Positions 11,073 to 26,410 of a stretch of DNA of 64,000 nt are shown one piece after another; position 1 is the stretch's first letter; each line of letters opens with the position of its first letter. The notes below the pieces were generated by a model. It did no database searches, had not been told where the DNA came from, and saw only the letters and a program-made list of their open reading frames with translations. Source of the DNA: Egibacteraceae bacterium (GTDB lineage: Bacteria; Actinomycetota; Nitriliruptoria; Euzebyales; Egibacteraceae). The translations under genes and the position numbers were made by a program. Location: NCBI GenBank assembly GCA_050743625.1, contig JBOGED010000195.1, forward strand, positions 1,643-65,642, written 5' to 3'.

Positions 11073-12314
11073 CTAGGGGGGTGCGATCTCCGAGGGTGGG
11101 TCCTCTACTTCTGTGAGATTCTCGTCCGAGGATGAGTCGATGTTCGTTGCTGTTGTTTCCTTATTGGTGATTGCTGGTGGCGTGTCAGATCGCTGGGACG
11201 GTTCCTCTGCGGGAGGCGGTGGAGCAGATTTCGTTAGGGGGAGTGGCTCAAACCCGTCGGGCGGCGGTTGTGAGGATTGCTCGATCAGCTCCGGGGGAGG
11301 CTGTTCTGGAACCTCCGTGGTCACCGCTCCCGTCTTTGGCTCATCGGCTGTGGTGTCGCCGGCTGTGGTGTCGCCGGCAGTCGCGTCATCGGCGGCCGCG
11401 GGAGTGCCGGCCGCAGCGAGAGCGGTCGAGGGAGGAGCCTCTACAAGCGGGTCATTCGGAGCAGGACCGGCGGTCACGGTCGCGGCGTGGTCATTGGCTG
11501 GTGGGGACTCGGCGGTGGAGAGCAGCGCCGGCGGTTCAACGGGCGTCGGCGGTTCAACGGGCGTCGGCGGTTCAAGGGCCGCGGGTGGCTCGGCCGTCGC
11601 GACCGGCTTCGCTTCGTCCAGCGGAGCCGGTCCCGCAGGCGTGGCCATATGCGGTGAGACGGGCTGATGCTCTGGGGCGGGCTCGAAGTCGGTCCACGGC
11701 GTGCCCAGGTAGGTGGGAGTTGTCGTGGTGACGGGCTGCATGGGGAGCAATGGGTTGCCGCACTGGCAGCGGACCCGCGGGACGCCGTGGGCGTCGACGA
11801 GCACGCCGCTGCCCTGCTGGAGCACCGCTTGGAAGGCTCGGAGACTGCCATCCTTGAACCCATGGTTGGTGACGCGGAGATCCCGGTCGAGCGTGCGTGG
11901 AGTGAGCTCGCGCATGTACGCCCCGATCTGGTCGACCTCGAGGCTCCACCCGAGCGCCGGGTCGGCGTTCAACGCTTGCGTCCACGCCGCCGCGCGTGCG
12001 GAGTCGGAGGTGAGGAACGCGATGAGCCGCTCCGGGTCACAGCCGGTGCCAGAAGTGACGCCAGCCGACGGAGCCGGAGCCGGGGCGTCCGAAGCCGGAG
12101 CCAGGGCGTCGAACGCCGGCGCGCCTGGACCCGGTGCCTCAGCGGCCGCCGCGGGACTGGGGACGAAGGGGTCGGAGCCCTGTTCCGCGGCCTGCTCCAG
12201 GACGATCTGGCTCTCGCCGGCCAGCCAGCCGGTGAAGCCCAACCATCCCGCGGCGCTGACGACGGCGGTGACAGCGATGATGGCCAACGTGAGGTTGCCG
12301 CTCTTCGATACCAT
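11073..12314 (-). CDS. Membrane-anchored protein with a conserved globular domain and a Pro/Ala/Thr-rich tail
   Basis: The ATG at 12314 is preceded by GAGGAA. There is an N-terminal TM helix (LTLAIIAVTAVVSAAGWLGFTGWLAG). The central domain contains GVPRVRCQCGNPLLP. The tail has short repeats (PPTPVEPPTPVEPP, TAGDTTAGDTTA) mirrored by 18-nt and 15-nt DNA tandem repeats. The gene lies directly downstream of the ABC pair on the same strand. Confidence 0.65.
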   Translation of the reverse strand: MVSKSGNLTLAIIAVTAVVSAAGWLGFTGWLAGESQIVLEQAAEQGSDPFVPSPAAAAEAPGPGAPAFDALAPASDAPAPAPSAGVTSGTGCDPERLIAFLTSDSARAAAWTQALNADPALGWSLEVDQIGAYMRELTPRTLDRDLRVTNHGFKDGSLRAFQAVLQQGSGVLVDAHGVPRVRCQCGNPLLPMQPVTTTTPTYLGTPWTDFEPAPEHQPVSPHMATPAGPAPLDEAKPVATAEPPAALEPPTPVEPPTPVEPPALLSTAESPPANDHAATVTAGPAPNDPLVEAPPSTALAAAGTPAAADDATAGDTTAGDTTADEPKTGAVTTEVPEQPPPELIEQSSQPPPDGFEPLPLTKSAPPPPAEEPSQRSDTPPAITNKETTATNIDSSSDENLTEVEDPPSEIAPP

Positions 12315-12325
12315 TGTCGTATTCC

Positions 12326-14080
12326 TCACAAAACTCGTTGCGCGACGGGACGGCGTGGCGGCGACATCTGTGGCTGCCAATGCCCGACAAGGTCGGCGTA
12401 GATAGGCGAGGTGGCGAGCAAGGACGCGTGCGTCCCGAGGAGGGGCGTCGCGCCGTTCATGAGCAGGATCCGCTCGGCGCGGAGGGCGGAGCTGATCCGG
12501 TGGGCGATGACGATGAGCGTGCCTCCCCGGGACGCGAAGGCCTGTTCGGCGCGCGCCTCGGCGACGGGGTCGAGGTGGCAGGTGGCCTCGTCAAGCAGCA
12601 CGATCGCGGCTCGGGAGAGGTAGACCCGGGTCAGGGCGACGAGCTGCCGCTCACCGGTGGACAGCTCGGCGCCGTCTGGGCCGAGCAGCGCGCCGTAGCC
12701 GCCCAACCGCTCCACCACCGGCCGCATGCCGACGAGCTCAGCGGCTCGGTCGAGCTCGTCGTCGTCGGCGTGCGGCCACAGGTAGGTGAGGTTGTCGCGG
12801 AGCGTGCCCGCGAACACGTATGCCTCCTGCGGGATCAGCGCGACGACGCGCCGGAGGTGCGGTCCAGAGACATCGACCAAGGGAACGCCGCCGAGACGCA
12901 CCTCCCCGCGGTCTGGGGGTACCAGCCCCGCGAGAAGGTTCGCGAGCGTCGACTTGCCAATGCCGCTCGGGCCCACGATCGCGAGGTGGGTGCCATGTGA
13001 GATCCCAAGGGTGAGGTCCCGTACGACCGGCTCCGCATGCGCACCGTACGCGAACGTGACGCCGTCGAGCTCAAGGTCGTGGCCGGCCGGCACCAGCCCC
13101 AGACCGGCCGGTGGCTCGGGAGGGACCCGGCACGCGACCGCGAGGTTCGCCAACACGACGCGCAGCTGCAAGCCCCAGCTCCCCGTCACGTCGACGAGGG
13201 AGTCCAAGGCGGGCGCGAGGCTGCCGGTGAGGTAGACGATCGCGCCACTCAGCTCGCCGATCGACAGCTGCTGGCGCCGGAGCAACCACGGGGATGCGAT
13301 CAGAATTCCGATGACGGGGAGGTCGGCTCCGAGGGTAACGACGAGGGTTCTGATGGTGTCGGCGCGGGCCATCCGGCGGGACGCGAGGGCCTGCTGGTCG
13401 ATGGACGCGCCCACCAGCGCGGCGGCGCGTTGCCCGGCGCCACACGCCACCACGTCGCGCAGGCCGCCGAGGACCTCACCGGCGGATCGCGCGATCGCCT
13501 CGGTCTCGAGCACGAGCGACCGTTGCCGCTGGCTCAGCGGTCGCAGGAGGCTCACATAGAGCACCAGGGCGAGGATCAGCGGTGGTGCCACGAGCAGTGC
13601 GATGCTGGGTGCAAGGGCGGCGATACCCACGAGGCTCGCGATCAACCCGAAACCGACCTGTCGCATGGTCTGTATCAGCGCGGACAGGAGCCCGCGCACC
13701 GACTCCACCTGTTGGGCGAGTCGCGCGACCTCTGTGCCGTCCGGCGCGCCCTGCCGGGCGGTCCCCCTTACCAGCGCCGCGACGGCGACGTCGCGGGCGA
13801 GCGCGTCGCGGACCGGCTCCACCACCTCGGCGAGCCAGGGAAACAGCCGGCGTGTGGCGACCGTGGAGACCACGCGGGCGATACCGAGCAAGCCGAGCCA
13901 ACTCAAGCCCACCATCGGGCGCCCGGCCAGGAAGCCCTCGTCGAGCGCGGCGGCGACGTAGAGCCCAGAGGTCAGCGCGGGGAGCGCCTCGACGAGGGAC
14001 CAGCCGACGACCCGCAGGAGCGCACGCCACTGGCGCGACAGGTGCCGGAAAAGCAGTGCCCAACCGCCGCCGCGCCTCAC
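12326..14080 (-). CDS. ABC exporter, fused permease-ATPase (half-transporter 2 of the class IV lanthipeptide operon)
   Basis: Six-TM N-terminal domain. Walker A GPSGIGKST, signature LSTGERQ and Walker B IVLLDEATCHLD. Its start overlaps the upstream gene by 4 nt. Confidence 0.9.
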   Translation of the reverse strand: MRRGGGWALLFRHLSRQWRALLRVVGWSLVEALPALTSGLYVAAALDEGFLAGRPMVGLSWLGLLGIARVVSTVATRRLFPWLAEVVEPVRDALARDVAVAALVRGTARQGAPDGTEVARLAQQVESVRGLLSALIQTMRQVGFGLIASLVGIAALAPSIALLVAPPLILALVLYVSLLRPLSQRQRSLVLETEAIARSAGEVLGGLRDVVACGAGQRAAALVGASIDQQALASRRMARADTIRTLVVTLGADLPVIGILIASPWLLRRQQLSIGELSGAIVYLTGSLAPALDSLVDVTGSWGLQLRVVLANLAVACRVPPEPPAGLGLVPAGHDLELDGVTFAYGAHAEPVVRDLTLGISHGTHLAIVGPSGIGKSTLANLLAGLVPPDRGEVRLGGVPLVDVSGPHLRRVVALIPQEAYVFAGTLRDNLTYLWPHADDDELDRAAELVGMRPVVERLGGYGALLGPDGAELSTGERQLVALTRVYLSRAAIVLLDEATCHLDPVAEARAEQAFASRGGTLIVIAHRISSALRAERILLMNGATPLLGTHASLLATSPIYADLVGHWQPQMSPPRRPVAQRVL

Positions 14081-15906
14081 GTGAGCACCCCTTGGTGCTC
14101 CTCCTGCGTGGAGCCGGCGAACACCGCCTGGTACTCCGGGTCGTCCCAGAGCAGCACGTGCGGCGCCAACGCCCTGATCCGTCCCCCGTCGAGCCAGGCG
14201 ACGAGGTCAGCTCTGGCCGCCGCGGCGGCTCGGTGCGCCACCACCATGCGGGTGCGGCCCGCCGGCGAGGCATACAGAGCCGTCTCCACCTGGACCTCGG
14301 TGGCGGTGTCGAGGCTCGAGGTCGCGTCGTCGAGCACCAACACCCGCCCACCCTGCGCGATCGCGCGGGCGAGGCCGAGCCGCTGGACCTCGCCACCCGA
14401 CAACGGCATCCGCGCGGGCGGTGTTGCGTAGCCGGCGGGAAGGCGGCGGACGAAGCCGTCCGCCTGAGCAGCCTCGGCGGCGCGCTCGACCTCCGCTCGG
14501 CTGGCCGACGGCCGGCCGTAGGCGATCGCGGCCTCGATCGTCGAGCCGAGCAGCGCGGGGCGCTCGAAGGCGTAGGAGACCGCGCGGCGCAGCTCGCCCT
14601 CGCGGATCCGCGAGACGGGGACGCCGTCGAGCAGCACCTCGCCCTCGTCGGGATCGACGAGGCGCCCGACTAGGGAGGCCAACGTCGTCTTGCCCGCGCC
14701 CGAGCGGCCGACGATCGCGACGGCGGCGCCGGCCGGAATGTCGAGGTCGAGCTGGTCGAGCACCACGGTCTCGCCCGCGCGGACGGTGATGCCTCGGAAC
14801 GTCACCGCGCCTGGGCCATCGGGCAGCGGGCGTGTGCCGGGGAAGTGGATGGGGCGCTCGGCGAGTACCTCAGCCACCCTGGCGGCGCCGGCGCGTGCGC
14901 TGACCGACTCCAGGACGGAGTCGATCTGCTCAAAGAGGCCGAGGGCCAGGGTGAAGTAGCCGACCGCGGCGAGCAGGTCGCCGGGCGTGAGGCGCCCGGC
15001 CGTCACGCCGAAGCCGGCCACGGCGAGCACGACGATCTGGAGCAGTGGCACGAGCAGCCCGAACTGCCACGTCACCTCCTGCTGTGCCCTCCACATACCG
15101 CGGCCGGTGGCCGACAGCTGGGGGAGCGGAGCGAGGACCCGGTCGATCTCGCGAGTCACCGTCCCGCTCGCGCGGATCGTCCGTATGCCCCGGAGCGCGT
15201 CGATGAGCCTTGTGGCGATCGCGGCCTGCAGCCGCCGGTAGTCGAGGAACAGATCCGACGCCTCGTGGATGAACCTGCGCAGGAACATGAACGTGATCGG
15301 CGCGCTGACGAGGAAGGTCGCGGCGAGGCGCCAGTCGATCAGCCAGAGCGCCACCACGGCGCCGATCGTGGTGGCCACGGTCACGACCGCGTCGAGCACC
15401 TCGCCCAACACCTGCGCGGCACCGGGTGCGTCACCGGTGAGCCGGGTCATCACGTCGCCTGCCCCGAAACGGCGCTGCCCCGCGATCCCCAGCGCGAGCA
15501 CGTGCCGGAACAGCCGGTGCCGCAGCCAGGCGACGACCGACGCTCCATAGGACGCGCCGGCCACGCTCGCCAGCATCTCCGCGAGCATCCCGGCGGCGAC
15601 CAGCGCGCCGAGGCGCACGAGTGCCACGCCGGGTGGCTCTCCTTGCAGCGCGGCGTCGACCGCCACCGCCAGCGCGGCGGGGAACAGCAATGCCGCGCCC
15701 GCATCGACGAGCATCGCGATGACGAGGGCGATGGTCCAACGCGGCGTTCGCCTCGCCGCCTGCAGCAGTAGGCGGTTGACCGTCGGCGGAGGCTCGTACG
15801 CGCCGGCCGAAGTCAATGGGGGATGACCCTGGGAAGCCGCCGCCGGCTCAGGGATCGGCCGGGGGGATCCCCGATTGTGCTTGCCCGCTCGCTCAGTGAA
15901 CATCAT
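14077..15906 (-). CDS. ABC exporter, fused permease-ATPase (half-transporter 1 of the class IV lanthipeptide operon)
   Basis: TM domain followed by Walker A GRSGAGKTT, signature LSGGEVQR and Walker B VLVLDDATSSLD. Confidence 0.9.
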   Translation of the reverse strand: MMFTERAGKHNRGSPRPIPEPAAASQGHPPLTSAGAYEPPPTVNRLLLQAARRTPRWTIALVIAMLVDAGAALLFPAALAVAVDAALQGEPPGVALVRLGALVAAGMLAEMLASVAGASYGASVVAWLRHRLFRHVLALGIAGQRRFGAGDVMTRLTGDAPGAAQVLGEVLDAVVTVATTIGAVVALWLIDWRLAATFLVSAPITFMFLRRFIHEASDLFLDYRRLQAAIATRLIDALRGIRTIRASGTVTREIDRVLAPLPQLSATGRGMWRAQQEVTWQFGLLVPLLQIVVLAVAGFGVTAGRLTPGDLLAAVGYFTLALGLFEQIDSVLESVSARAGAARVAEVLAERPIHFPGTRPLPDGPGAVTFRGITVRAGETVVLDQLDLDIPAGAAVAIVGRSGAGKTTLASLVGRLVDPDEGEVLLDGVPVSRIREGELRRAVSYAFERPALLGSTIEAAIAYGRPSASRAEVERAAEAAQADGFVRRLPAGYATPPARMPLSGGEVQRLGLARAIAQGGRVLVLDDATSSLDTATEVQVETALYASPAGRTRMVVAHRAAAAARADLVAWLDGGRIRALAPHVLLWDDPEYQAVFAGSTQEEHQGVLT

Positions 15907-16012
15907 CTAAGACATGCGAGCCGCGACGGACACTGCATGATCCAAGGTCCTTTCGGTGGATCTGTAGGCGTGGCATTGCTGCCTGATCCTTGCGATGCTG
16001 GGTGAGGTGAGG

Positions 16013-16064
16013 GGTACGGAGGACGAGCCCCCAGGACTTGAATCCTGGGACTCGCCTCCGTACC
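16013..16064 (-). terminator. Long imperfect hairpin between the class IV precursor gene and the ABC genes (candidate attenuating terminator)
   Basis: GGTACGGAGG-ac-GAG-ccc-CCAGGA-cttgaa-TCCTGG-ga-CTC-g-CCTCCGTACC, located 48 nt downstream of the precursor stop codon. Confidence 0.45.
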
Positions 16065-16111
16065 TCTCCGGGCCGACCTGACTCTTGTAAGGCCGGATGG
16101 TCGTCTGTGCC

Positions 16112-16303
16112 CTAGAACTGAATGTTCGCTTGGGTCCCAACGCAGGTGACTGCGCAGGAAAGGCCGCAGACGAAGACGTTGACTCCGACGTTGACCCGGA
16201 CCCGGCGCCTATGGCGAAGGCCGATCTCGGTGCTGCTTGCCGTGACAGGATCGGTTTCCGGCAGGAGCTGCAACGCGGTGACGTCGACTTCCAGTGTTTG
16301 CAT
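16112..16303 (-). CDS. Class IV lanthipeptide precursor (LanA)
   Basis: 63 aa: MQTLEVDVTALQLLPETDPVTASSTEIGLRHRRRVRVNVGVNVFVCGLSCAVTCVGTQANIQF. A strong RBS (GGAAGGAGGTGAACA) lies 3 nt before the ATG. The leader LLPETDPV resembles the venezuelin-type leader as I recall it. The C-terminus is Cys/Ser/Thr-rich. GC3 is high. The gene sits between the peptidase and the transporters of a LanL operon. Confidence 0.8.
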   Translation of the reverse strand: MQTLEVDVTALQLLPETDPVTASSTEIGLRHRRRVRVNVGVNVFVCGLSCAVTCVGTQANIQF

Positions 16304-18158
16304 CGATGTTCACCTCCTTCCGTGGTGTCGTGGATGAACGGAGAAATCGCACGATGCGTGCCTGCAGCGGGTCGGGACCACCGGGACCGAGCACCTCGTG
16401 CCCGTCCGGGACCTCGACGTAGTCGAGGTCCAGGCCTTCACACCTGCCCAGCCCGAGCAGGCGGCCTCGGAGCAGGCGTGAGTGGCTGACCGGGATCAGC
16501 TCGTCGTGGTCGCCGTGGACGATCAGCAGCTTGGCGGTGATCGCGGGGCAGAGCCGCAGCACGTCACGAGGCCCGTGCGCGTCGCCCAGCTCCTCGTGAC
16601 CGCCCAGCCGCTCGAGCAACCCGCGGACCGCCGGGGAGCCGTCGGCGTAGAGCCGGGGTCCCGAAAGGAAGGGCGCGATCGCGGCGCAGTGGGACCACGA
16701 GCTGGACTCGCGGGCCGCGCAGAGCAGCGCCAGGAACGCGCCGTAGCTGATCCCGAGGAGCATGAGCCCCTCGTGGCCGCGCTCGGCGGTGAGGGACCGT
16801 GCGACGGCCAAGATGTCCTCGACGTCCGGGCCGCCCCAAGCGCCGTGGATGGCGTCCGCGTGCGCCGCCCCGTATCCGGTGCTACCGCGGGGGTTGAGCG
16901 CGACGACGGCAATGCCGGCGCGAGCCAATGCTTGGAACAGTGGGTCGAACTCGAAGCGCCAGGCGTCGGCGGGACCGCCATGCAGCGCGACGACGAGGCG
17001 CTCGGCCCTGCGCCACCCTTCGCCCCCATAGACGATGGCCTCGATGGGACCGGCCGGGCCGTCGAGGCGCTCGATGCGAGCGGGCTCCCAACCTTCCCCG
17101 GACTCTCCGGCCACCGACCAGCCCTGACCTCCTTCGACGCCGACGGTGGCCACGGCTGGCGGCATGGCGGGGGTAGAAAACGGAAAGCGCAGCAGCTCAT
17201 CGTCCCAGTACGCGGTGCCGCGGACCTGGCCCGCGGGGATCTCGACGGGGGTGAGGTGGTCCTTGGCGGGGCTGTACACCACGAGGCAGGACCGCACGCC
17301 CTCGTTCAGGTGCACCAGGACGCGCTCCTGGCTCGTGTCCAGCGTCAGCGGCCGTGGCGCGTGGCTGGGGTGGTGCAGTGCCTCAGGGAACCGCACCGGC
17401 TCACCCGAGCCGAGCCTGGCCCAGCCGAGCCGGTCCTCGCCAGCCGCGTCCGTGCTGACCACCACCAGTCCGGACCGAGGGCCGGCCAGCAGCAACCGGT
17501 CGTTGCTCTGTGTGGAGACGTGGAGCAGTGGGGTCCACTCACCGGTCCGAAGGTCGAGGCCTCCCGCCTTGATCGGGCCGCCGTCCTCGGCGCGGTTGAG
17601 GCCCAGCAGGGTTCCCGCCTCGTCGAGCCAGGCGCCGCCGTAGAGCAGGCCAGGCAGCTCGATCACCCGCTCGAGGCGCGGTCGCCCATGCGTGACACGC
17701 CAGATGGTCGAGCATCCCGCGCTGTCCGTCTCGATCGCGAGCGCGTGCGAGCCCGCTCCGAGCGACGGCAAGAGCCGCAACCCGAGGCTTTCGACTACCG
17801 CGAGCACCTCCTCGCCTACGGCGCCCCCGCGGGGCCCCCAGCAGGAGCTGGGGAGGCGGGCCTCGATGCTGTCGACGCATCGGGCATCGAGCATGGCGAT
17901 CTCGTGGACCGTTTCGCGGTTGCGGCACAACAGGATGCGCCCGTCGTCGAGTGGCAGGAGCTGATCGGTGATCTCGACGGATCCGGGGACCTCGAGCGGC
18001 CGCCGATGGGCCGACGCGCCGCGAAACGACCAGGCCTCGAGCCTCGGGTGGTCCCGCTCGACGATGGCGAGGCACGCGGCGTGGCTGCCGTCCGGGGAGA
18101 ACCGGAAGCTCACCCGGTCCAGGACGAGCGTGCCGGTTTTCTCCAGGGTGGCGGTCAC
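16209..18158 (-). CDS. S9-family serine peptidase (prolyl-oligopeptidase / acylaminoacyl-peptidase-like), candidate leader peptidase
   Basis: N-terminal beta-propeller-like region. C-terminal alpha/beta-hydrolase domain with GISYGA (nucleophile Ser), HGDHDELIP (Asp) and PDGHEV (His). The GTG at 18158 overlaps the LanL stop codon (GTGA). The 3' tail overlaps the precursor start by 95 nt. Confidence 0.85.
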   Translation of the reverse strand: MTATLEKTGTLVLDRVSFRFSPDGSHAACLAIVERDHPRLEAWSFRGASAHRRPLEVPGSVEITDQLLPLDDGRILLCRNRETVHEIAMLDARCVDSIEARLPSSCWGPRGGAVGEEVLAVVESLGLRLLPSLGAGSHALAIETDSAGCSTIWRVTHGRPRLERVIELPGLLYGGAWLDEAGTLLGLNRAEDGGPIKAGGLDLRTGEWTPLLHVSTQSNDRLLLAGPRSGLVVVSTDAAGEDRLGWARLGSGEPVRFPEALHHPSHAPRPLTLDTSQERVLVHLNEGVRSCLVVYSPAKDHLTPVEIPAGQVRGTAYWDDELLRFPFSTPAMPPAVATVGVEGGQGWSVAGESGEGWEPARIERLDGPAGPIEAIVYGGEGWRRAERLVVALHGGPADAWRFEFDPLFQALARAGIAVVALNPRGSTGYGAAHADAIHGAWGGPDVEDILAVARSLTAERGHEGLMLLGISYGAFLALLCAARESSSWSHCAAIAPFLSGPRLYADGSPAVRGLLERLGGHEELGDAHGPRDVLRLCPAITAKLLIVHGDHDELIPVSHSRLLRGRLLGLGRCEGLDLDYVEVPDGHEVLGPGGPDPLQARIVRFLRSSTTPRKEVNIDANTGSRRHRVAAPAGNRSCHGKQHRDRPSP

Positions 18159-20860
18159 GCCGTGGCTCCCGCGACGGTCACGGGCTCGGCCATCCACATG
18201 CGCGGGCCTGGATGCTCGAGCCGCATCAGGAACGCGAGCACTCCGGCGAGCCCGACACCGTAGTCGGCGACGACTGTCACCCGCGACTCGTCGGGGATGA
18301 CGATCCTGCCCTCACGGAGCGCGTGGCAGGCGAACATCGGCGCGACGAGCTCGGTTGCCCAGTCCCGGTAGCGCGGCTCGTCCAGAGCCTCCGCCAGGTC
18401 CAGCAGGAACTCGCCGTTGCCGGCCAGCCCGTGACAGGACGCGGGGGAGGCCAGCCACCGCGTGCGGCGTACCGCCATACTCGCCATCTCGGCCAGCTCC
18501 CGGTGGCGCTCGTCGCCGGTGACCCGCCAGAGGCGGAGCAAGAAGGAGCCGACGCCGGACGAGCCGTGGCACCAGTGCACGAAGCGGCTGTCCTCGTCTG
18601 CTGGGCCTTCGCTCCAGGTCGCGATGCCGCCGTCGCGCTGGGCGGCCGCGCAGAGCGTCTCGCCGGCCTCCTTGGCGATCTCGACGCAGTCGTCGCGGCC
18701 AAAGGCGAGGCCGGCAGCCAGCAGGAACCAGGCGATGCCGGCGACCCCATGCGCGAAGCCGTAATAGGTCTGGCCGGTGAGGGCTGAGTCGAACGAGGCG
18801 GGGATCGGCCAGGCCACTCCGGTCGGGCCGTATTCGGCCGTCTTGAGCAGGCCGTCGGCGCAGCGCTCCACGCGCTCTGGAAGCTCGGCGTCCCCTGTCG
18901 CTCGCCAGAGATACAGCTGGGTGAGGCCCGCGCCGGCCGCGCCATGCGTGATGTCTGGGTTTGGCCAGGTCACCGGGACGCGTTTGGCGAGCGCGAGCGC
19001 CCGAGCCGCCATCTCGAGGTCGTTGAGCGCTTCGGCGGCGTCGTAGAGCGCCCACGCCGTCCCCGACCGGCCGAAGTACAAGCCGGGCAAGAGGCGCGGC
19101 TCCGCGGCCATCCGCCGCTCGATCCAGGCGCAGGCTGTCCGTAGCGGATCGTGCCAGCGCTCGCCGCCGTGGCGGCTCGCCGCCTGAGCCAGCACGGCGA
19201 CGACACCGGCGGCGCCGTGCTGGACCGCGCAGGGATCGGTGGCCGCGCCGAAGGGGGTCGACGGCCACAGGCGGGACTTCTCAGGGGTCATCGAGGAGAT
19301 CAGGTGCGCGAGGCCGTCCTCGATGAGGCGCTGGTGATCGGGAAGCGACGTGGTTGGCCGCGTCACGGGCCGGAGTGCGCGCTCCTCCGCGTCGAGGAAC
19401 GCGGTGACGCGCTCCAGGCTCCAGCGGCGCTCGGGCGCCTCGTCCATCAAGCCGATGATCAGCGGCCGCAGGCGCCTGGCGGCCTCGCAGTCGGCGGCCA
19501 TCGCCGTCAACCAGCCATCGAGGCGACCCTGTGTGGACCGCACCGCGAGGGAATCCTCGGGCAGAGCGGGGTCGCTGCCGGTCGCGAGGAGGAAGCTGAT
19601 GGCCCCCAGGCTGTACAGGTCCGCCTCCTTGGCGGCAGGAGATCCCGCCAGCTGCTCGGGCGCCGCATACGCGCGCGTCCCGGCCCGTGTCCCCTCGGCC
19701 CCGAACGGCGCGGCCAGCTCGAGATCGACGATCCGGATCTCGCCATCAGGCGTGATCATGATGTTGTTCGGCGTCAGGTCGCGAAGCGCGACTCCCGCCG
19801 CACGTACCCGAGCGAGCGCGCGCGCGAGCTGGCGGATCATCTTTGCGGCCGCCAACCACGGGAGGCCAGGTCCATCCTCGGTATGGTCGGCGACCCAGTC
19901 CCGCAAGCCATCCCCGTCGACGAGCTCTGAGACAAGGAATACATGCCCACCCTGCTCGAGCAGCCTGATCGGGCGCGGGGTGATCCGCAGCGGCAGGAGC
20001 AGCAGGAGCATCTCGGCCTCGTGCCGCAACGCGTCGCGGACGTCCCTGCCGTGCTCGTCCGCCTGGACGTGAGGTCTGGCCTCCTTCACGATCACGTCAG
20101 CATCGGTCGCCGTATCCGTGGCGCGATACACGCCGCCCTTATTCGCGTGGCGGATCGCCTCGCGGACGATGAAGCGATCCCCGAGCAGCACCGACCGTGG
20201 CCGGCTGGGTCCCGTGGCCGGCGTCTCGGCGTCCTCTCCGACCGGGGGGACGACACCAGCGGGTGGGTTGAACCACGCGTCCCGCCGGTCCTCGACGAGG
20301 GCGCCGCCCGGCCCGATGATCATCGGCCGGTAGTAGCCGTCGTTGGTCAGGACCGCCGTCCCGGCAAAGGCTCCATACCGGTAGTGCACAAGGCTGCCCG
20401 GTCGGTACGGGCGGTCAGAGAGAATGGCGGGGCCCGCAAGCCCGGCGGTCACGGCATCGAGCTCGGCCGCCAGGCGACGGAAGTGGTCGTCGTCGTCGGG
20501 GTAGGCGGTCAGGAACTTCCCCGCGCCCCCACGGTGGTAATGCGTCGAGTTCAGGATCCCCGCCTGCTCCCGGCTCTTCGCGAACTTGAACGCGCACCCG
20601 CTGGCCGTCAGCACGCCCACCGCCCTGGTGAGCACCGCTCCCGCCGAGGCGCGGGTCGCCGACACGTGCAGCTTCCAACCTTGGTCGCGCTCCTGGTACC
20701 GGGGCGGCCGTACATGGCACCAGAGCTCGTCCAGCCAGACGTCCCAGCCTCGCGCCCCTTCTTGGTCCATCCCGGCGCGAAGTAGATCAATGAGTGAAGA
20801 ATCATTCATATCGTCGCGCTTAGGCTCAAATAATGGCGCAACAAAATCGACATTGTTCAA
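18155..20860 (-). CDS. Class IV lanthipeptide synthetase (LanL: lyase-kinase-LanC cyclase)
   Basis: 901 aa. N-terminal OspF-like lyase motif QGWKLHVSA. Ser/Thr kinase core (VIVKEARPH, DLTPNNIMI, DLELAA). The C-terminal LanC-like domain retains the zinc ligand motifs GFAHGVAG, WCHGSSG and CHGLAGNGE, which indicates class IV rather than class III. Confidence 0.9.
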   Translation of the reverse strand: MNNVDFVAPLFEPKRDDMNDSSLIDLLRAGMDQEGARGWDVWLDELWCHVRPPRYQERDQGWKLHVSATRASAGAVLTRAVGVLTASGCAFKFAKSREQAGILNSTHYHRGGAGKFLTAYPDDDDHFRRLAAELDAVTAGLAGPAILSDRPYRPGSLVHYRYGAFAGTAVLTNDGYYRPMIIGPGGALVEDRRDAWFNPPAGVVPPVGEDAETPATGPSRPRSVLLGDRFIVREAIRHANKGGVYRATDTATDADVIVKEARPHVQADEHGRDVRDALRHEAEMLLLLLPLRITPRPIRLLEQGGHVFLVSELVDGDGLRDWVADHTEDGPGLPWLAAAKMIRQLARALARVRAAGVALRDLTPNNIMITPDGEIRIVDLELAAPFGAEGTRAGTRAYAAPEQLAGSPAAKEADLYSLGAISFLLATGSDPALPEDSLAVRSTQGRLDGWLTAMAADCEAARRLRPLIIGLMDEAPERRWSLERVTAFLDAEERALRPVTRPTTSLPDHQRLIEDGLAHLISSMTPEKSRLWPSTPFGAATDPCAVQHGAAGVVAVLAQAASRHGGERWHDPLRTACAWIERRMAAEPRLLPGLYFGRSGTAWALYDAAEALNDLEMAARALALAKRVPVTWPNPDITHGAAGAGLTQLYLWRATGDAELPERVERCADGLLKTAEYGPTGVAWPIPASFDSALTGQTYYGFAHGVAGIAWFLLAAGLAFGRDDCVEIAKEAGETLCAAAQRDGGIATWSEGPADEDSRFVHWCHGSSGVGSFLLRLWRVTGDERHRELAEMASMAVRRTRWLASPASCHGLAGNGEFLLDLAEALDEPRYRDWATELVAPMFACHALREGRIVIPDESRVTVVADYGVGLAGVLAFLMRLEHPGPRMWMAEPVTVAGATA

Positions 20861-21647
20861 CTAATCCCCCAGATGACTGAAGCCACCGTAGGCGCGTGAA
20901 GTCGGCGACGCCTACTTAGGAATCCGTGAATGCACGCGAGCCGCGTACGTTCCCCGCCTGTAAACTAACCCTTAGTTAGTCAGGAATCCTTGTATTGCCC
21001 GGTGGGGGCCAATACGCCTTCCATGTTCCCGCCTTCCTTCTCATCCCGCTCATGGAAGTTGTAGCCCTCCTGTTCACTCTCCGCAAGGCTATTTTCTCTT
21101 CGGTGCCGCCCGTGAGGACAGCACTACCTAGAGCTGATATGCTTCGCAGCCTTTCATCCCCTTTCTCGGTATCGCCCGAATTATCTTAGTCAAACAGGCA
21201 AGATCGTTGGTCCGGTAATTCCTATACAAGATGATTACTGACCGTAATCTAACTGATACGGCGACGCCGTTATCGGGACACGAAATTGTGCGCCGGATGA
21301 TGGCTGACTCGGAGACTTCGCCACGGATCGACTGGATAGGGATGAGGTGAGCGTTGGCCAGATATGCGACAGATACCCTGTGAGGTTTGCGATAATGGCG
21401 CTTGGAACAACGTCAACTTCTGAGCTGGAGTGCATCTGTCGGGTAAAAGCATGACACAATCTGTATACCGGCTGCCCCAGGCCAAGCTGGTGGTCCGTCG
21501 CCGAGGTCCTTTCAATGGCGGGGCGCGATCTGCGCCCCGCTCGCTTGTGCGGGAGGAGCGACGCGTATCCGCTGAGAACGCTGAGCGACGAGCAACGCCG
21601 CGAGGCCCGGGCGTGGGATGCGCATTCCGACGTGAAAGGAACTTAAG

Positions 21648-21842
21648 TGGTCGCGCGGATAGGCCGTGACCGGCTGTGCGGCATGGAACCGCAGCTTTCC
21701 TCCGCATGCGAAGGAAAGCTGCGGTCTTGTTCCCGCGGCGCGCGTTGAACCCGCAGAAATCCTCCGTATACGGAGGAAAGCTGCAGTGTGACCATGCATC
21801 TGCTCTCTGTCTGCGCGCTGAGGGCCGGGCGCCTATCCGCGC
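21648..21842. repeat. MITE-like element: 14-bp terminal inverted repeats enclosing two family C hairpins
   Basis: TCGCGCGGATAGGC (21648-21661) is matched by its exact reverse complement at 21829-21842. Inside lie CCGCAGCTTTCCTCCGcatgCGAAGGAAAGCTGCGG (21689-21724) and CCGCAGAAATCCTCCGTATACGGAGGAAAGCTGCAGTGTGACC (21751-21793). Confidence 0.6.
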
Positions 21843-21849
21843 GAGCGGT

Positions 21850-22048
21850 TAGGCGACGGGCCACTGGTCATCCGCGACAGGAAGGGGCCGCTGGCGCACA
21901 CGACCTCGGGGATGTTCATCGCTAACGCCGCCTGGGCCGCCCTTGCCATGCTGGCGCACAACCCGGGCGGTGGAGCCTGCGCTGTGCGTCGGCAAGGGGA
22001 CCGTGCGGACTGCTCTACCTGCGTCTCGTTATTAACTGGTGATCCATA
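21850..22048 (+). pseudogene. Remnant of a transposase C-terminus (IS1380-like)
   Basis: The + frame reads ..RDRKGPLAHTTSGMFIANAAWAALAMLAHNPGGG..stop. The segment F-x-AN-AAW-x-LA-x-LAHN is a motif I associate with IS1380-family transposase C-termini. There is no intact upstream ORF. Confidence 0.35.
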
Positions 22049-22746
22049 GCGGGTTCCTTTTGGCATTCGATTACGCCTGCATCCCGTCGATCGCAGTTCG
22101 ATGCTCAAGGACCTCTTCTACGGATCGCCAGTTAGGAGCGCCCTCGGACCCCCGAGACGACACAGGAGCGGTAGCGCCCCAGCTGTCTTGTCCGACACGA
22201 CTCCGTCCACACCATCCCAGAATTCCGCCGCCAAGAGTTAAGTTATCTTAATATAAATTGCCATCGGTAGGCGGGCGCTCACGGAGGGTGTTATTATATC
22301 GTGCTGCCTTCGGTTAGTGGCTGATGTGGTCACTGGAGCTTCTGCGAAACGAATTCTGTCCCTTTCGGGCGAGGGATGGTAAGCCAGACATTCCAGTTGG
22401 TTAAATGTCGCAAGCTGTCTCGACGTGGTTCAAGGTGGCAATTTTCAGGCCTTGGTGAAATTTATATGGGCAAGATCCTCGTGATGAGGGAGCTTGCCTC
22501 TATGCGGCTAAAAAAATCACTATCTGGGGTTGACTTCCAGGGACTCATCATTACCATCGGGTGACCTGGGGATGAACAACGTGGCCCAGAAGGGCGGCTA
22601 GGAAGTAGTCCGATGGCGTAAAGGCGGCGGCGCATTCTCGAGTGTTTCGGATAAGTCCGACTGTATGTGTCGTCGTGTAGTTGAGGAATCACTTCCAGCT
22701 CCTCCCGACGAGGTGAACTCTGATCACCACTTCGGAGGAATGAGCG

Positions 22747-23253
22747 ATGGCAGGCTTCGATTTTGGCATGTTCACTGCTATGTCACGGGGCAACGGCGCA
22801 GACGATCCTGTGCTGGTCGAGATGCGTAACGACGCCTCCCTGACACGGGCGGCGAGGCGGAGCGCTGAGGGGCGGCGACCGGCGGCCTCTCGTGTGGCAT
22901 CACGCCAAAGGAAGGCGCGGTGGAGGCTCCATGTGTCTGCGGCGCACGCGTCTGCGCAGGCGATGTTTGCTCGATCGCTTCCCCTGCCGGGGGAGGCGCA
23001 TGCGGGCTTCAAGCTTGCGAGTACGAGCGAGCACGTTGCCTCAACCGAAGGTAGGCGACGCTTCGCAGCCATGGGTCTCCACGAGGTGACGAAGAAGTCG
23101 TCCGATGGGGCGAGGCGCCCTACTGGACGGCAGCGGGCCTCGCCGCTCCCCGTATTCTCGCGGACCATCCGTACGCGTGACGCGCGGGAAAGGCTCGTTC
23201 GCTGCCGGTACGGCGCGTTGCTACCGCGGGCTCGTCCCGCATCGGCCTCATAG
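22747..23253 (+). pseudogene. Degenerate stand-alone homologue of the LanL/LanKC N-terminal lyase domain (relic or inactive paralogue)
   Basis: 168 aa. The segment RWRLHVSAAHASAQAMF..GFKLASTSE..RCRYGAL aligns with GWKLHVSATRASAGAVL..AFKFAKSRE..VHYRYGAF of the LanL at 18155..20860. The Lys of GWK is replaced by Arg. The ORF is Arg-rich and has lower GC3 than its neighbours. Confidence 0.4.
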
Positions 23254-23482
23254 ACGTGGCTCACCAGACTGATCTCATCTTTCGAAACTTCGGTCATGTC
23301 TATGTGGACAAAAAGCAAATAAATAGAAAGAAGCGCCCACCCTCCGTTTTTCAAAAAAGATCCGTCAACCCCTTGACTGATATCCAGGCGTCATTTTAAA
23401 TAGCAACCCCGGGTGGCGGAACCGCGTCGAGGTTGGCAGCGGGCGCGCGTCGATAGAGGGACCCAAAGAGAACAGGCATATC

Positions 23483-26098
23483 ATGGATATGCAGTATGAA
23501 ATGTATTGCCTTACGGATCCGATCTTCTACGACTCGCTTATCAATGCGCGGGCAGAGAATCTCGAATTCGAGGTTGCCCGACGCCCAGTACCGCAGGGGT
23601 GGCAGCGCTTTGACAATGATGGCTGGTTGATATACCAAACGGCCGATATGCAACTTCCGTTGCAGGGGTGGAAGATCCACGTTTCGGCATGTATGCACAA
23701 CGCCGAGGAGATTCTCGCCACGGTCTGGGATTACTGTATCGCGCGCGGTATCTCGTTCAAGTTTCTGTGCGGGCGTCATATCCTCTATATGGCTAACTCT
23801 AAATACGCGGGCCGGGGTGGCAGTGGGAAGCTTGTGACGATCTATCCGGTGGACGAGGCTGAGCTGGAATTGGTGCTCAAGGAGGTGGGTGAGCTCCTAG
23901 AAGGCCAGCCGGGTCCTTACATCTTGAGCGATCTGCGCTGGGGCTCGGGACCCCTGTATGTCCGGTACGGGGGCTTCGCCGAGCGGTACCGCCTGTCGGA
24001 GCAAGGGGAGTGGGAACTCGCCATGGAAGACCCCACCGGCGAACTGGTTCCCGATAGACGCGAGCCGACATTCAAGGTTCCGCCGTGGGTGACGCTTCCC
24101 GACTTTCTCGTTCCCCACCTGGCGGCGCGCAACAGCACGACGGTAACGGATCTTCCCTACAATATTGAACGGGCGCTGCACTTCTCCAACGGAGGCGGCC
24201 TGTACCTTGCCCAGGACCGGCGGACGGGCGAGCAGGTCGTGCTCAGGGAAGCACGGCCTCACGCCGGGCTCGCTGCCGACGGGACGGACGCCGTCACCAG
24301 GTTGCAGCACGAACGGGCGATCCTAGAACGACTGGCCGGCCTCGACGTAGCGCCAGGTCTCCGCGACTACTTCATGCTGGGCGAGCATCACTTCCTCGTC
24401 CAGGACTTCGTCCAAGGGCAACCCCTCAATAGAGCCTTCATCGAGCGCTACCCCCTGATCCAGCGCGGAATCGACCAGCGCGTGGTCGCCGAGTACACGG
24501 CGTGGGCGCTGGCTGTCCTCCGTGAGGTCGAGCAGACCATCGCTGCGCTACACGAACGCGGCATTGTCTTCGGAGACCTCCACGTGCTCAACATCATGCT
24601 CCTGCCCGACGATCGCGTCAGGCTCATCGATTTCGAGGTCGCGGCACACGTCCGCGAGGGAGGCCGGCCAAGTCTGGCCAACCCGGCCTTCGCCGCGCCG
24701 CCGGACCGCACCGGTTTCGACATCGACCGGTACGCACTGGCCTGCCTGCGCCTCTTCATGTTCTTGCCCCTGACCTATCTGCTACCGCTCGAGCTGGGCA
24801 AGGCAGAGCATCTCGCCGAGGAGATCGCCGAGCGTTTTCCGGTCACTCGCGAGTTCCTGGAAGAGGCGCTGCAAGTGATCATCGGCACGAAAGAACGGCA
24901 GGAGACAGACGCCGGGACAGGATCGGGGAGCGCGCTCCGTCACCTGCCGCTGCCCAGCCCAGGCCGCTCCGGCTGGGAGCGTACACGTGAGTCCATGACT
25001 CAAGCCATCCTGACCAGCGCAACGCCGGACCGTGACGATCGCCTCTTCCCGGGAGACATCGAGCAGTTCAACTCGGGTGGTCTCAACGTCGCCTATGGCG
25101 CAGCAGGAGTGTTGTATGCGCTGTCCGTGACCGGGGCGGGCCGTTACCCGGAGCACGAGGAGTGGCTCACGCGACAGGTTATGCGCTTGGACCAGAAGGC
25201 CCGTCTGGGCTTCTACGATGGGCTTCACGGCGTGGCCTACGTCCTAGCCCATCTCGGGTATCGAGGCGAAGCCCTGAGGGTCCTCGACATGTGCCTGGCC
25301 GAGAAGTGGGAGAGGCTAGGCCTCGACCTCTTCGCAGGTCTCGCTGGTGTCGGCCTGAACGTGGCGCACCTTGCCGCAGTGACTGGTGACGCGTCGCTGC
25401 GAGACACCGCGCTTCGGGCGGCGGACATGATTGCGGACCGGTTGGGCGACGAGGACAGTGTCCCGACCGTCAGCGGCGGCGATCACCCCTACGCCGGGCT
25501 CATGCGCGGATCTTCCGGACCCGGCCTCCTGTTCGTCCGCTTGTACGAACTCACCGGCGACAGCGGCTTCCTGGACCTCGCCGCGACGGCGTTGCGCCAA
25601 GACCTCCGGCGCTGTATGACCCACGAGGATGGGGGCATGGAGGTCAACGAAGGCTGGCGGACTATGCCCTACCTCGCGACCGGCAGCGTGGGCATTGGGT
25701 TGGTACTGGACGACTATCTCGTTCACCGCCAAGATGAGCGGTTCGCGGATGCCAGCGCCGCGATCCGGGGAGCTGCCGAGTACGACTACTACGCCGAGTC
25801 GCAAGTCTTTGACGGCCGTGCAGGCATCATCCTCTACCTCAGTCGTTCGCACCGCGTCGGTGCGGCCGCGAAGGACCCGCTCGTGGCCGACCACGTACGC
25901 CGTCTCGCGTGGCATGCCATGCCCTACCAGGGCTATCTGGCCTTCCCAGGCGAGCAGCTGCTTCGGCTATCCATGGATCTCGCCACGGGCACGGCCGGGG
26001 TCCTCCTCGCCCTAGGCGCTGCACTGCACGACGAGCCCGTGGGCCTGCCATTCCTCAATCCCCGGCAGCCTTCGAGTTTCTCGCGGTCATCTTCATGA
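23483..26098 (+). CDS. ramC: Class III lanthipeptide synthetase (LanKC; RamC/AmfT-like)
   Basis: 871 aa. Lyase motif QGWKIHVSA. Kinase core (VVLREARPHAG, DLHVLNIML, DFEVAA). The C-terminal LanC-like repeats lack the Cys/His zinc ligands: LMRGSSG replaces WCHGSSG and LATGSVG replaces CHGLAG. Confidence 0.9.
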   Translation: MDMQYEMYCLTDPIFYDSLINARAENLEFEVARRPVPQGWQRFDNDGWLIYQTADMQLPLQGWKIHVSACMHNAEEILATVWDYCIARGISFKFLCGRHILYMANSKYAGRGGSGKLVTIYPVDEAELELVLKEVGELLEGQPGPYILSDLRWGSGPLYVRYGGFAERYRLSEQGEWELAMEDPTGELVPDRREPTFKVPPWVTLPDFLVPHLAARNSTTVTDLPYNIERALHFSNGGGLYLAQDRRTGEQVVLREARPHAGLAADGTDAVTRLQHERAILERLAGLDVAPGLRDYFMLGEHHFLVQDFVQGQPLNRAFIERYPLIQRGIDQRVVAEYTAWALAVLREVEQTIAALHERGIVFGDLHVLNIMLLPDDRVRLIDFEVAAHVREGGRPSLANPAFAAPPDRTGFDIDRYALACLRLFMFLPLTYLLPLELGKAEHLAEEIAERFPVTREFLEEALQVIIGTKERQETDAGTGSGSALRHLPLPSPGRSGWERTRESMTQAILTSATPDRDDRLFPGDIEQFNSGGLNVAYGAAGVLYALSVTGAGRYPEHEEWLTRQVMRLDQKARLGFYDGLHGVAYVLAHLGYRGEALRVLDMCLAEKWERLGLDLFAGLAGVGLNVAHLAAVTGDASLRDTALRAADMIADRLGDEDSVPTVSGGDHPYAGLMRGSSGPGLLFVRLYELTGDSGFLDLAATALRQDLRRCMTHEDGGMEVNEGWRTMPYLATGSVGIGLVLDDYLVHRQDERFADASAAIRGAAEYDYYAESQVFDGRAGIILYLSRSHRVGAAAKDPLVADHVRRLAWHAMPYQGYLAFPGEQLLRLSMDLATGTAGVLLALGAALHDEPVGLPFLNPRQPSSFSRSSS

Positions 26099-26137
26099 TC
26101 CGAAACTCACCCAGCAACCAAGGAAGGAGGTGAACAG

Positions 26138-26266: not shown

Positions 26267-26367
26267 CGCTGACCACAATCACGATGCGGAGATGATGGAC
26301 GTCTCTGCGACAACCAGCATGGCGTAGCAGCGTCTCCTAGAGAGACAACGCAGGCTATAGCGGTTGC

Positions 26368-26407: not shown

Positions 26408-26410
26408 ATT

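What the first reader, a model, noticed from the sequence alone, without database searches (positions are those of the whole stretch)
12326..20860. Class IV (LanL) lanthipeptide operon with an S9 prolyl-oligopeptidase-like gene and an atypical basic precursor
The minus-strand order is LanL (zinc ligands retained), an S9 peptidase coupled by GTGA, a 63-aa LanA and two ABC half-transporters.

The leader ..LQLLPETDPV.. resembles the venezuelin-type class IV leader as I recall it. It offers two Pro residues as potential post-proline cleavage sites. A prolyl oligopeptidase acting as leader protease is documented for the class III flavipeptin system (FlaP). I do not recall it for class IV.

The predicted core is unusual:
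- an Arg-rich block (RHRRRVRV) sits between the leader-like part and the hydrophobic Cys region;
- there are only three Cys, in CGLSCAVTC;
- the Ser and Thr lie immediately before Cys residues.

This suggests small or non-standard rings. A Pro-rich membrane protein (11073..12314) follows the transporters and could be an immunity or accessory factor.
Basis: partly seen in the sequence, partly recalled or inferred. Interest (0 to 1): 0.6.

Follow-up and report, generated by a model that had tools for sequence, protein, structure and literature searches.

The report
Class IV lanthipeptide operon with S9 peptidase
This is a real gene cluster for a ring-containing ribosomal peptide (class IV lanthipeptide) of a widespread but biochemically untested type that carries its own serine peptidase; only the peptide itself, with an unusual arginine-rich segment, is new.

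Summary
The minus strand from 20860 to 11073 encodes, in order:
- LanL (NCBIfam class IV equivalog, 1077 bits against a cutoff of 650; zinc ligands present);
- an S9 serine peptidase joined to LanL by a GTGA overlap;
- a 63-aa precursor with a strong ribosome-binding site;
- a strong hairpin;
- two ABC half-transporters;
- a DUF6777 membrane protein.

- **LanL–S9 pairing is common.** 61 of the 80 best S9-homologue loci from species-representative genomes have LanL directly upstream. Most have an ALQxLPET-leader precursor directly downstream. Walker et al. 2020 (Table S9) already list Peptidase_S9 ("LanP_P") as the third most abundant protein in class IV clusters. I found no biochemical study of such an enzyme.
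- **Ser/Thr immediately before Cys is normal for this family.** It also occurs in venezuelin, where three of four rings run from Cys to a downstream dehydro residue.
- **The Arg-rich segment is a true outlier.** It is 24–26 aa with charge +3/+4, against 6–18 aa and charge 0 to −3 in 18 relatives.
- **The S9 enzyme is closer to acylaminoacyl peptidases (S9C) than to classical prolyl oligopeptidases.**
- **DUF6777 is not conserved with the cluster.**

Verdict: a new member of a known kind, of modest interest.

The parts
18155..20860 (-). lanL: class IV lanthionine synthetase (lyase, kinase and zinc-dependent cyclase domains)
   Evidence: NF038150 scores 1077 bits (cutoff 650) over the full model. 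Pfam finds RamC_N, Pkinase and LANC_like. The WCHG and CHG motifs align to the same motifs of LANCL2. The true start may be the TTG at 20860, M18 (20809) or M31 (20770).
16209..18158 (-). S9-family serine peptidase ('LanP_P'); GTGA overlap with the lanL stop; non-conserved 3' tail overlapping lanA by 95 nt
   Evidence: Pfam PF00326 scores 70.8 bits. The triad is Ser471 (GISYG), Asp552 and His587; Asp and His are invariant and Ser is present in 25 of 26 homologues. The AF2 model has pLDDT 82.7, with a beta-propeller (residues 14-380), an alpha/beta-hydrolase domain (388-607) and a disordered tail (611-649). Fold matches are to S9 peptidases.
16112..16303 (-). lanA: 63-aa precursor. Leader MQTLEVDVTALQLLPETDPV; variable linker TASSTEIGL; Arg-rich and hydrophobic segment RHRRRVRVNVGVNVFV; ring region CGLS-CAVT-CVGT; tail QANIQF.
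   Evidence: NF038157 ALQxL scores 21.0 bits (cutoff 19). An 83%-identical orthologue sits in the same position in L008. The core-coding block is 98% identical against 80% overall.
16313..16317 (-). GGAGG ribosome-binding site, 9 nt upstream of the lanA ATG
   Evidence: Read directly from the sequence. It is conserved in L008.
16009..16068 (-). Long G+C-rich stem-loop directly after lanA, with no U-tract. Probably a partial terminator or mRNA stabiliser that sets the ratio of lanA to transporter transcripts.
   Evidence: The 126-nt stretch folds at -61.7 kcal/mol, z = -5.4, and 0 of 200 shuffles fold as well. The outer stem is identical in L008 while the loop differs.
14077..15906 (-). ABC half-transporter (membrane domain plus ATPase domain), no peptidase domain
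   Evidence: Pfam finds ABC_membrane and ABC_tran. A homologue follows S9-lanA in 42 of 80 related loci.
12326..14080 (-). Second ABC half-transporter; 4-nt overlap with the first
   Evidence: Pfam finds ABC_membrane and ABC_tran. It is conserved downstream in related loci.
11073..12314 (-). DUF6777 membrane-anchored, Pro-rich protein. It starts 11 nt after ABC2. Whether it belongs to the cluster is doubtful.
   Evidence: PF20568 scores 128 bits. Among all fetched loci it is found only in L008-L011. Synteny with L008 continues beyond it.

Best explanation
This is a biosynthetic operon for a class IV lanthipeptide, of the widespread architecture LanL - S9 peptidase - LanA - two ABC half-transporters.

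**Shown by sequence**
- LanL has the lyase, kinase and zinc-cyclase domains.
- LanA has the family's ALQxLPET leader box.
- The S9 enzyme has an intact Ser/Asp/His triad, a beta-propeller and no signal peptide.
- The transporters have no peptidase domain.

**Inferred**
1. LanL binds the leader and phosphorylates then eliminates Ser49, Thr53 and Thr57.
2. LanL joins these to Cys46, Cys50 and Cys54. The most likely product is three consecutive small rings running from each Cys to the dehydro residue three positions downstream (CGLS, CAVT, CVGT), the orientation shown for three of venezuelin's four rings.
3. The cytoplasmic S9 peptidase then cuts within the leader or linker of the modified peptide, plausibly after Pro16 or Pro19. 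This is by analogy with FlaP of class III, and every family member keeps at least one Pro in or near this box.
4. Any remaining residues are trimmed by housekeeping aminopeptidases.
5. The ABC pair exports the product.
6. The hairpin after lanA keeps lanA transcripts in excess over transporter transcripts.

The Arg-rich and hydrophobic stretch probably stays on the mature peptide. That would give a cationic, membrane-seeking N-terminus.
For: - **Enzyme and precursor identity:**
- **Gene order is conserved.** 61 of the 80 best S9-homologue loci have LanL directly upstream. The five upstream synthetases I tested, from Embleya, Kitasatospora, Micromonospora, Pseudonocardiaceae and Egibacteraceae, are all LanL by NF038150 at 999-1120 bits.
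- **A matching precursor follows S9.** An ALQxLPET-leader precursor follows S9 in nearly all of the 58 sources that have one.
- **S9 is unlikely to be a C-terminal trimmer.** It accompanies precursors whose cores differ completely, including venezuelin-type peptides that end at the last Cys (L037, L062). The leader is what they share.
- **S9 is predicted active and intracellular:**
- **No alternative peptidase in the cluster.** The ABC proteins have no C39 domain.
- **Ring orientation has a precedent** in venezuelin (PMC2843593). Tandem C-x(2-4)-[ST] units recur across the family.
- **The core is under constraint.** The core and N-terminal leader coding blocks are 98% and 95% identical to L008, against 72% for the linker.
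- **An S9 leader peptidase has a precedent:** FlaP in class III (PMC8341899).
Against: - No experiment links any class IV S9 enzyme to leader removal. Reviews up to 2025 describe class IV leader removal by unlinked M1 AplP-like proteases.
- The LPETDP box also occurs in VenA, whose cluster has no protease. The prolines may therefore serve LanL recognition rather than cleavage.
- The S9 enzyme resembles acylaminoacyl peptidases and a carboxypeptidase more than prolyl oligopeptidases. Specificity for Pro at P1 is unproven.
- 19 of the 80 homologue loci show no LanL directly upstream at my tblastn threshold; one of these (L063) has almost no upstream sequence.
- The ring pattern is inferred from spacing alone.
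- The sequence comes from a cave metagenome, and there are no expression data.
Confidence: 0.62

Rival explanations
1. The cluster makes the lanthipeptide, but the S9 enzyme is not the leader peptidase. It could trim the C-terminal tail (QANIQF), remove a blocked N-terminal residue, or degrade stray peptide as self-protection. The leader would then be removed by unlinked M1 AplP-like or other housekeeping proteases.
For: - The best fold match is an S9 carboxypeptidase (8wt1), followed by acylaminoacyl peptidases.
- The PDB profile search gives the same S9C neighbours.
- The literature assigns class IV leader removal to unlinked AplP-like enzymes.
- 19 of 80 homologue loci show no LanL directly upstream.
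Against: - S9 is retained next to LanL in clusters whose precursors have no C-terminal tail at all, such as L037 '...VCVGVSC' and L062 '...CIGISCT'. Tail trimming therefore cannot be the shared role.
- S9 is translationally coupled to LanL (GTGA) and sits immediately before lanA.
- It has no signal peptide, so it meets the peptide before export.
Confidence: 0.25
2. The operon is silent or decaying in this organism. The S9 gene has lost its normal stop codon and the peptide is no longer made or processed.
For: - One extra base relative to L008 removes the S9 stop and extends the frame 95 nt into lanA.
- There are no expression data; only DNA runs hold the sequence.
- Venezuelin itself was never detected from its native host.
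Against: - The extension adds only a disordered tail after the last conserved residue (pLDDT below 50 from residue 611).
- The triad is intact.
- L001 also has an S9-lanA overlap.
- All six reading frames are open.
- The lanA core is the most conserved block in the comparison.
- The same sequence appears in the contigs of two runs.
Confidence: 0.08
3. The 63-aa reading frame is not the LanL substrate. The Arg-rich and hydrophobic peptide would be an unrelated small membrane protein, with the true precursor elsewhere.
For: - The segment between the leader box and the first Cys is far longer and more basic than in any relative.
- The peptide fails the VenA-family cutoff (21.4 bits against 35).
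Against: - The leader passes the ALQxL cutoff.
- It occupies exactly the position of the precursor in nearly all of the 58 related sources that have one.
- Its C-terminal part aligns with Egibacteraceae precursors: 'VFVCG..[ST]C..TC' in L012.
- A profile scan of all six frames of the window found no other candidate.
Confidence: 0.05

Closest known systems
Venezuelin system (VenL/VenA/VenT/VenH, Streptomyces venezuelae; Goto et al. 2010, PMC2843593)
   Same: - Trifunctional LanL with zinc ligands.
- Leader with the L-x-x-LPETDP box.
- Hydrophobic core with Ser/Thr directly before Cys.
- Two ABC transporter genes.
- No regulator or obvious immunity gene.
   Different: - The ven cluster has no protease gene; this one has an S9 peptidase between lanL and lanA.
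- The core is unrelated: three Cys in tandem C-x-x-[ST] units, against four Cys in overlapping rings.
- The window peptide fails the VenA-family cutoff (21.4 bits against 35).
- It carries a +4 Arg-rich linker.
ALQxL / VenA-family precursors in LanL-S9-LanA-ABC-ABC clusters of Kitasatospora, Embleya, Yinghuangia, Pseudonocardiaceae and Egibacteraceae (uncharacterised; counted as 'LanP_P' in Walker et al. 2020, Table S9)
   Same: - Same gene order.
- S9 enzymes 40-58% identical and LanL 41-65% identical.
- Same leader box.
- The same logic of tandem C-x(2-4)-[ST] units, for example CQFT-CLILT-CLIFT.
   Different: - The window's linker is 24-26 aa with 4-5 Arg, against 6-18 aa with neutral or acidic charge (often Gly-rich).
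- The core sequence has only one relative (83% identical) among 5.8 billion clustered proteins, and none among 1.84 billion representatives.
FlaP, the prolyl oligopeptidase of the class III flavipeptin cluster (Voller et al. 2013, as described in PMC8341899)
   Same: - An S9-family serine peptidase encoded inside a kinase-type lanthipeptide cluster.
- The precursor leader contains Pro.
- A cytoplasmic location is plausible.
   Different: - FlaP works with a LanKC (class III, labionin), not a LanL.
- Homology between FlaP and this enzyme was not tested here.
- This enzyme's nearest solved relatives are S9C acylaminoacyl peptidases rather than S9A prolyl oligopeptidases.
AplP-like M1 zinc proteases (class III NAI-112; the homologues acting on class IV SflA)
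   Same: They are the currently accepted route for removing class III and class IV leaders, by an endopeptidase cut followed by aminopeptidase trimming. Such trimming could finish the job after an S9 cut here.
   Different: - They are metalloproteases of a different fold.
- They are usually encoded outside the cluster.
- None is present in this operon.

Membership tests
Class IV lanthipeptide biosynthetic cluster (LanL type) | A single synthetase with an N-terminal phospho-Ser/Thr lyase, a central kinase and a C-terminal LanC-like cyclase | tested here: met
   Pfam finds RamC_N, Pkinase and LANC_like. NF038150 (equivalog) scores 1077 bits against a cutoff of 650. The class III model reaches only 480.7 bits, below its cutoff of 575.
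Class IV lanthipeptide biosynthetic cluster (LanL type) | The cyclase domain retains the Cys/Cys/His zinc ligands, which class III LanKC lacks | tested here: met
   HWCHGSSG and SCHGLAGNG align to HWCHGAPG and CHGTAGNG of LANCL2. The ligand assignment itself comes from my own knowledge of LANCL1/NisC.
Class IV lanthipeptide biosynthetic cluster (LanL type) | An adjacent precursor with a recognisable leader and a Cys plus Ser/Thr core | tested here: met
   NF038157 scores 21.0 bits against a cutoff of 19. The core has 3 Cys and 3 downstream Ser/Thr.
Class IV lanthipeptide biosynthetic cluster (LanL type) | The product actually contains (methyl)lanthionine rings | not testable with these tools
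   This needs expression and mass spectrometry.
VenA family class IV lanthipeptide (NF038147) | A whole-peptide match, leader plus venezuelin-type core, above 35 bits | tested here: not met
   The score is 21.4 bits and only residues 3-23 (the leader) match. S9-linked precursors L062 (97.6 bits) and L017 (48.5 bits) do pass.
ALQxL family class IV lanthipeptide (NF038157, leader domain) | The leader motif scores at or above 19 bits | tested here: met
   21.0 bits. The orthologue in L008 scores 18.9 bits, just under the cutoff.
Peptidase family S9 (prolyl oligopeptidase family in the broad sense) | An alpha/beta-hydrolase catalytic domain with a Ser-Asp-His triad, preceded by a beta-propeller | tested here: met
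   PF00326 scores 70.8 bits against a cutoff of 22.6. The triad is aligned to Aeropyrum acylaminoacyl peptidase and conserved. The AF2 model shows the propeller and hydrolase domains. Foldseek gives TM 0.6-0.7 to S9 peptidases.
Prolyl oligopeptidase proper (subfamily S9A) / FlaP-like post-proline leader peptidase | Closest relationship to S9A enzymes, and cleavage after Pro in the modified precursor | tested here: inconclusive
   - The best sequence and fold neighbours are S9C acylaminoacyl peptidases and an S9 carboxypeptidase; porcine POP ranks 46th.
- Pfam reported no hit to the N-terminal ~390 residues.
- Cleavage specificity is not testable here.
Peptidase-containing ABC transporter (PCAT, double-Gly leader removal) | An N-terminal C39 peptidase domain on the exporter | tested here: not met
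   Only ABC_membrane and ABC_tran were found on both proteins.

The most novel reading that the evidence does not exclude
The S9 enzymes translationally coupled to LanL form a dedicated, cluster-encoded family of class IV leader peptidases, serving roughly a third of class IV clusters. They would act on the conserved LPET(D/E)(P/S) box of the modified precursor. This would answer, for this subclass, how class IV leaders are removed. In this member, the product would be a cationic lanthipeptide with three contiguous four-residue 'Cys-first' rings and an Arg-rich N-terminal arm, a scaffold not yet described.
Probability: 0.45. Interest if true: 0.45.

Novelty: new member of a known kind. Interest (0 to 1): 0.3.

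Why it matters
Very few class IV lanthipeptides have been characterised: the venezuelin group (venezuelin, streptocollin, globisporin), SflA, and two from a refactoring screen. How their leaders are removed has been attributed to unlinked housekeeping proteases.

This operon belongs to a large, untested subclass that carries its own S9 peptidase. Any culturable member, such as those in Kitasatospora or Embleya, would be an easier test bed than this cave-metagenome sequence.

The window's specific contribution is small. It is one more core sequence, notable for a cationic Arg-rich arm. If that arm is retained in the product, it could give membrane-directed activity.

Tried and rejected
- **Rfam scan of the whole window** at gathering thresholds gave no match. 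There is no known riboswitch or sRNA in the cluster or in the low-GC gap upstream.
- **Exhaustive phmmer of LanA** against 1.84 billion representatives found only the window's own gene call and one 1327-aa protein matching a short stretch, which I did not follow up. This confirms rarity, but small precursors are seldom called as genes.
- **The first S9 locus search with a single protein** found only one true relative. An alignment-based search was needed.
- **Papers not held.** Hegemann & van der Donk 2018 (PMC5932250) and Ren et al. 2020 (PMC7814421) were unavailable. I therefore could not check the SflA core or the class IV cluster surveys in them.
- **Walker 2020 precursor table.** The stored copy is cut, so the family number of these precursors could not be retrieved.
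- **Sigma-70 promoter and terminator scan.** The counts did not exceed the shuffled expectation.
- **DUF6777 as a cluster component** was rejected for lack of conservation.
- **C-terminal trimming as the shared S9 role** was rejected because many S9-linked precursors end at the last Cys.
- **FlaP comparison.** I could not obtain the sequence, so it was not done.
- **The 19 S9 homologues without LanL.** High-GC reading-frame noise made a quick reading uninformative, and I did not pursue it.
Full report
**1. Observation**

The minus strand between 20860 and 11073 carries six tightly packed reading frames.

- **18155..20860** translates to a protein with RamC_N (lyase), Pkinase and LANC_like domains.
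  - It scores 1077 bits on the NCBIfam equivalog for class IV LanL (cutoff 650). The class III model stays below its cutoff.
  - Its cyclase domain carries HWCHG and SCHGLAGNG. These align to the same motifs of LANCL2. Equating them with the zinc ligands rests on my own knowledge of LANCL1/NisC.
- **16209..18158** starts with a GTG that overlaps the LanL TGA as GTGA. It hits Pfam Peptidase_S9.
- **16112..16303** encodes MQTLEVDVTALQLLPETDPVTASSTEIGLRHRRRVRVNVGVNVFVCGLSCAVTCVGTQANIQF. GGAGG lies 9 nt before the ATG.
- **A 23-bp-class stem-loop follows** (z = -5.4). Its outer stem is identical in the nearest relative, while the loop differs.
- **Two ABC half-transporters** come next, without a peptidase domain, followed by a **DUF6777 protein**.

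**2. Is the small reading frame a real precursor?**

- Its leader passes the NCBIfam 'ALQxL family class IV lanthipeptide' cutoff (21.0 bits against 19).
- An 83%-identical peptide sits in the same place in a related metagenomic contig with the same gene order (L008-L011).
- Between the two contigs, the core-coding 60 nt is 98% identical and the N-terminal leader is 95% identical. The linker is 72% and the S9-lanA stretch is 80% overall.
- This comparison rests on only two sequences. It still points to constraint on exactly the parts that should matter.

**3. How usual is the architecture?**

- The S9 protein has more than 120 full-length homologues at 40-58% identity. They come from Egibacteraceae, Pseudonocardiaceae, Kitasatospora, Streptacidiphilus, Embleya and Yinghuangia.
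- A profile-guided scan of one genome per species found 390 loci encoding a relative. I examined the best 80.
  - 61 have a LanL homologue directly upstream on the same strand.
  - 42 have the ABC pair downstream.
  - 58 sources, counting the window and L008-L011, have an ALQxLPET-leader peptide; in nearly all it follows S9 directly.
- Five upstream synthetases from different genera all score 999-1120 bits as LanL.
- The precursors fall into several core types:
  - CQFTCLILTCLIFTIS in Kitasatospora, Embleya and Yinghuangia;
  - genuine venezuelin-type cores in Pseudonocardiaceae and Planosporangium (VenA family, 97.6 bits);
  - diverse cores in Egibacteraceae.
- The literature already records the association. 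Walker et al. 2020, Supplementary Table S9, lists Peptidase_S9 ('LanP_P') as the third most abundant protein in class IV clusters: 112, against LanL 340.
- I found no paper that characterises such an enzyme.
  - Reviews from 2020 to 2025 describe FlaP (class III) and unlinked AplP-like M1 proteases for class IV.
  - The venezuelin cluster has no protease.

**4. What kind of S9 enzyme is it?**

- The triad is Ser471 (in GISYG), Asp552 and His587. Asp and His are invariant and Ser is present in 25 of 26 homologues. The triad aligns to that of Aeropyrum acylaminoacyl peptidase.
- An AlphaFold model (pLDDT 82.7) shows an all-beta propeller (residues 14-380), an alpha/beta-hydrolase domain (388-607) and a disordered tail (611-649).
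- The best fold matches are an S9 carboxypeptidase and acylaminoacyl peptidases. Porcine prolyl oligopeptidase ranks 46th.
- So it belongs to family S9, but it is not demonstrably a post-proline enzyme.
- It has no signal peptide, so it should meet the peptide before export.
- The disordered tail comes from one extra base relative to L008. That base removes the normal stop and carries the frame 95 nt into lanA. Contigs from two runs of a cave-metagenome study agree with the window. L001 has a similar overlap.

**5. The core**

Across 20 representative family members, almost all have two [ST]C pairs.
- Venezuelin has T31-C32 and S49-C50. Its rings are Cys34-Dhb39, Cys45-Dha49, Cys32-Dhb43 and Cys50-Dhb31. 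Cys-first rings are therefore established for LanL products.
- The family pattern is tandem C-x(2-4)-[ST] units. In the window these are CGLS, CAVT and CVGT.
- I infer three consecutive Cys(i)-to-dehydro(i+3) rings. This is not shown.
- What is unusual is the segment between the leader box and the first Cys.
  - In the window and L008 it is 24-26 residues, with charge +3/+4 and 4-5 Arg.
  - In the other 18 representatives it is 6-18 residues, with charge 0 to -3 and at most one basic residue.
- Compared with the Egibacteraceae peptide ...ALQCRNTRVFVCGNKTCDFTCGVVTIG, the window peptide has lost the first C-x-x-T unit. It has gained RHRRRVRVNVGVN in that position.

**6. Mechanism**

- The shared feature of all S9-linked precursors is the leader, not the core or a C-terminal tail. 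Several end at the last Cys.
- The transporters lack a peptidase domain.
- The most economical reading is that S9 makes the first cut in the leader or linker of the LanL-modified peptide. Aminopeptidases would then finish the trimming, and the ABC pair would export the product.
- Every precursor keeps at least one Pro in or near the LPET(D/E)(P/S) box. This fits a post-proline cut. VenA has the same box without any S9 gene, so the evidence is weak.

**7. DUF6777**

- The DUF6777 gene starts 11 nt after ABC2.
- Among all fetched loci it is found only in the window's close relative. Synteny with that relative continues beyond it.
- It is best treated as a neighbour, not a component.

**8. Verdict**

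- The annotation of a class IV lanthipeptide operon is correct.
- The LanL-S9 pairing is common and already tabulated, although biochemically untested.
- The ring-region pattern is typical for the family.
- The Arg-rich arm is the one real peculiarity.
- This is a new member of a known kind, of modest interest.

Noticed in passing
window 23483..32848 (+ strand): A second, divergently oriented lanthipeptide cluster. It holds a class III LanKC (23483..26098; NF038151, 1124 bits) and a 42-aa SapB/AmfS-family precursor (26138..26266, MALLDLQGMELPVEAKDALAGKSSRSKHSCGPSVLSITIICL; NF033212, 37 bits). These are followed by two ABC transporters (26411..28261, 28099..30042) and two M16 peptidase genes (30039..31466, 31463..32848). 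It looks like a ram/amf-type morphogen cluster with its own M16 pair.
   Followed up: partly
window ~21090..23480: A stretch of about 2.4 kb lies between the two clusters. Its G+C is lower (0.58-0.63 against about 0.70). It has no convincing reading frame, no Pfam or Rfam hit and no homology to L008. In L008 the equivalent position holds a second, divergent LanL-S9 pair.
   Followed up: partly
window 16209..16303: The S9 reading frame overlaps lanA by 95 nt because of one extra C relative to L008 (tcatccacgac against tcatcacgac). The same sequence is found in contigs of two runs of a cave-metagenome study. L001 shows a comparable S9-lanA overlap.
   Followed up: yes
window 15967..16026 (- strand): A 60-nt block just after the lanA hairpin and upstream of the first ABC gene is 97% identical to L008, among the most conserved non-coding sequence in the comparison. 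It may be an internal promoter or a regulatory site.
   Followed up: no
L008 1..3757 (- strand): The nearest relative carries a second LanL (42% identical; NF038150, 893 bits) coupled to a second S9 peptidase (31% identical), divergent from the first cluster. I found no precursor for it in the held sequence.
   Followed up: partly
L012 11832..12711; L014 11800..12521; L025 12015..12724: Several relatives carry two or three tandem precursor genes after S9. L012 has two different cores plus a truncated third copy. Single Egibacteraceae MAGs hold at least three separate LanL-S9 clusters (L001, L013 and L015 in one; L012 and L014 in another).
   Followed up: no
L001 6125..6298: A precursor with the family leader but only one Cys, and a basic stretch after it (LGCKSRRSRSAVTDVQTDPWRPASRPW). 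There is no LanL within the 4.2 kb upstream of its S9 gene. It could be a frameshifted MAG sequence or a divergent core.
   Followed up: no
L023, L026, L028, L030, L031, L039, L043, L045, L050, L053, L056, L058, L060, L069, L078, L086: S9 homologues at 39-44% identity, mostly in Streptacidiphilus and some Kitasatospora, show no LanL upstream at the tblastn threshold I used. Their context was not resolved.
   Followed up: partly
P0108 (Embleya scabrispora S9 homologue): Gly replaces the catalytic Ser in the G-x-S-x-G motif. It is the only such case among 26 aligned homologues.
   Followed up: no
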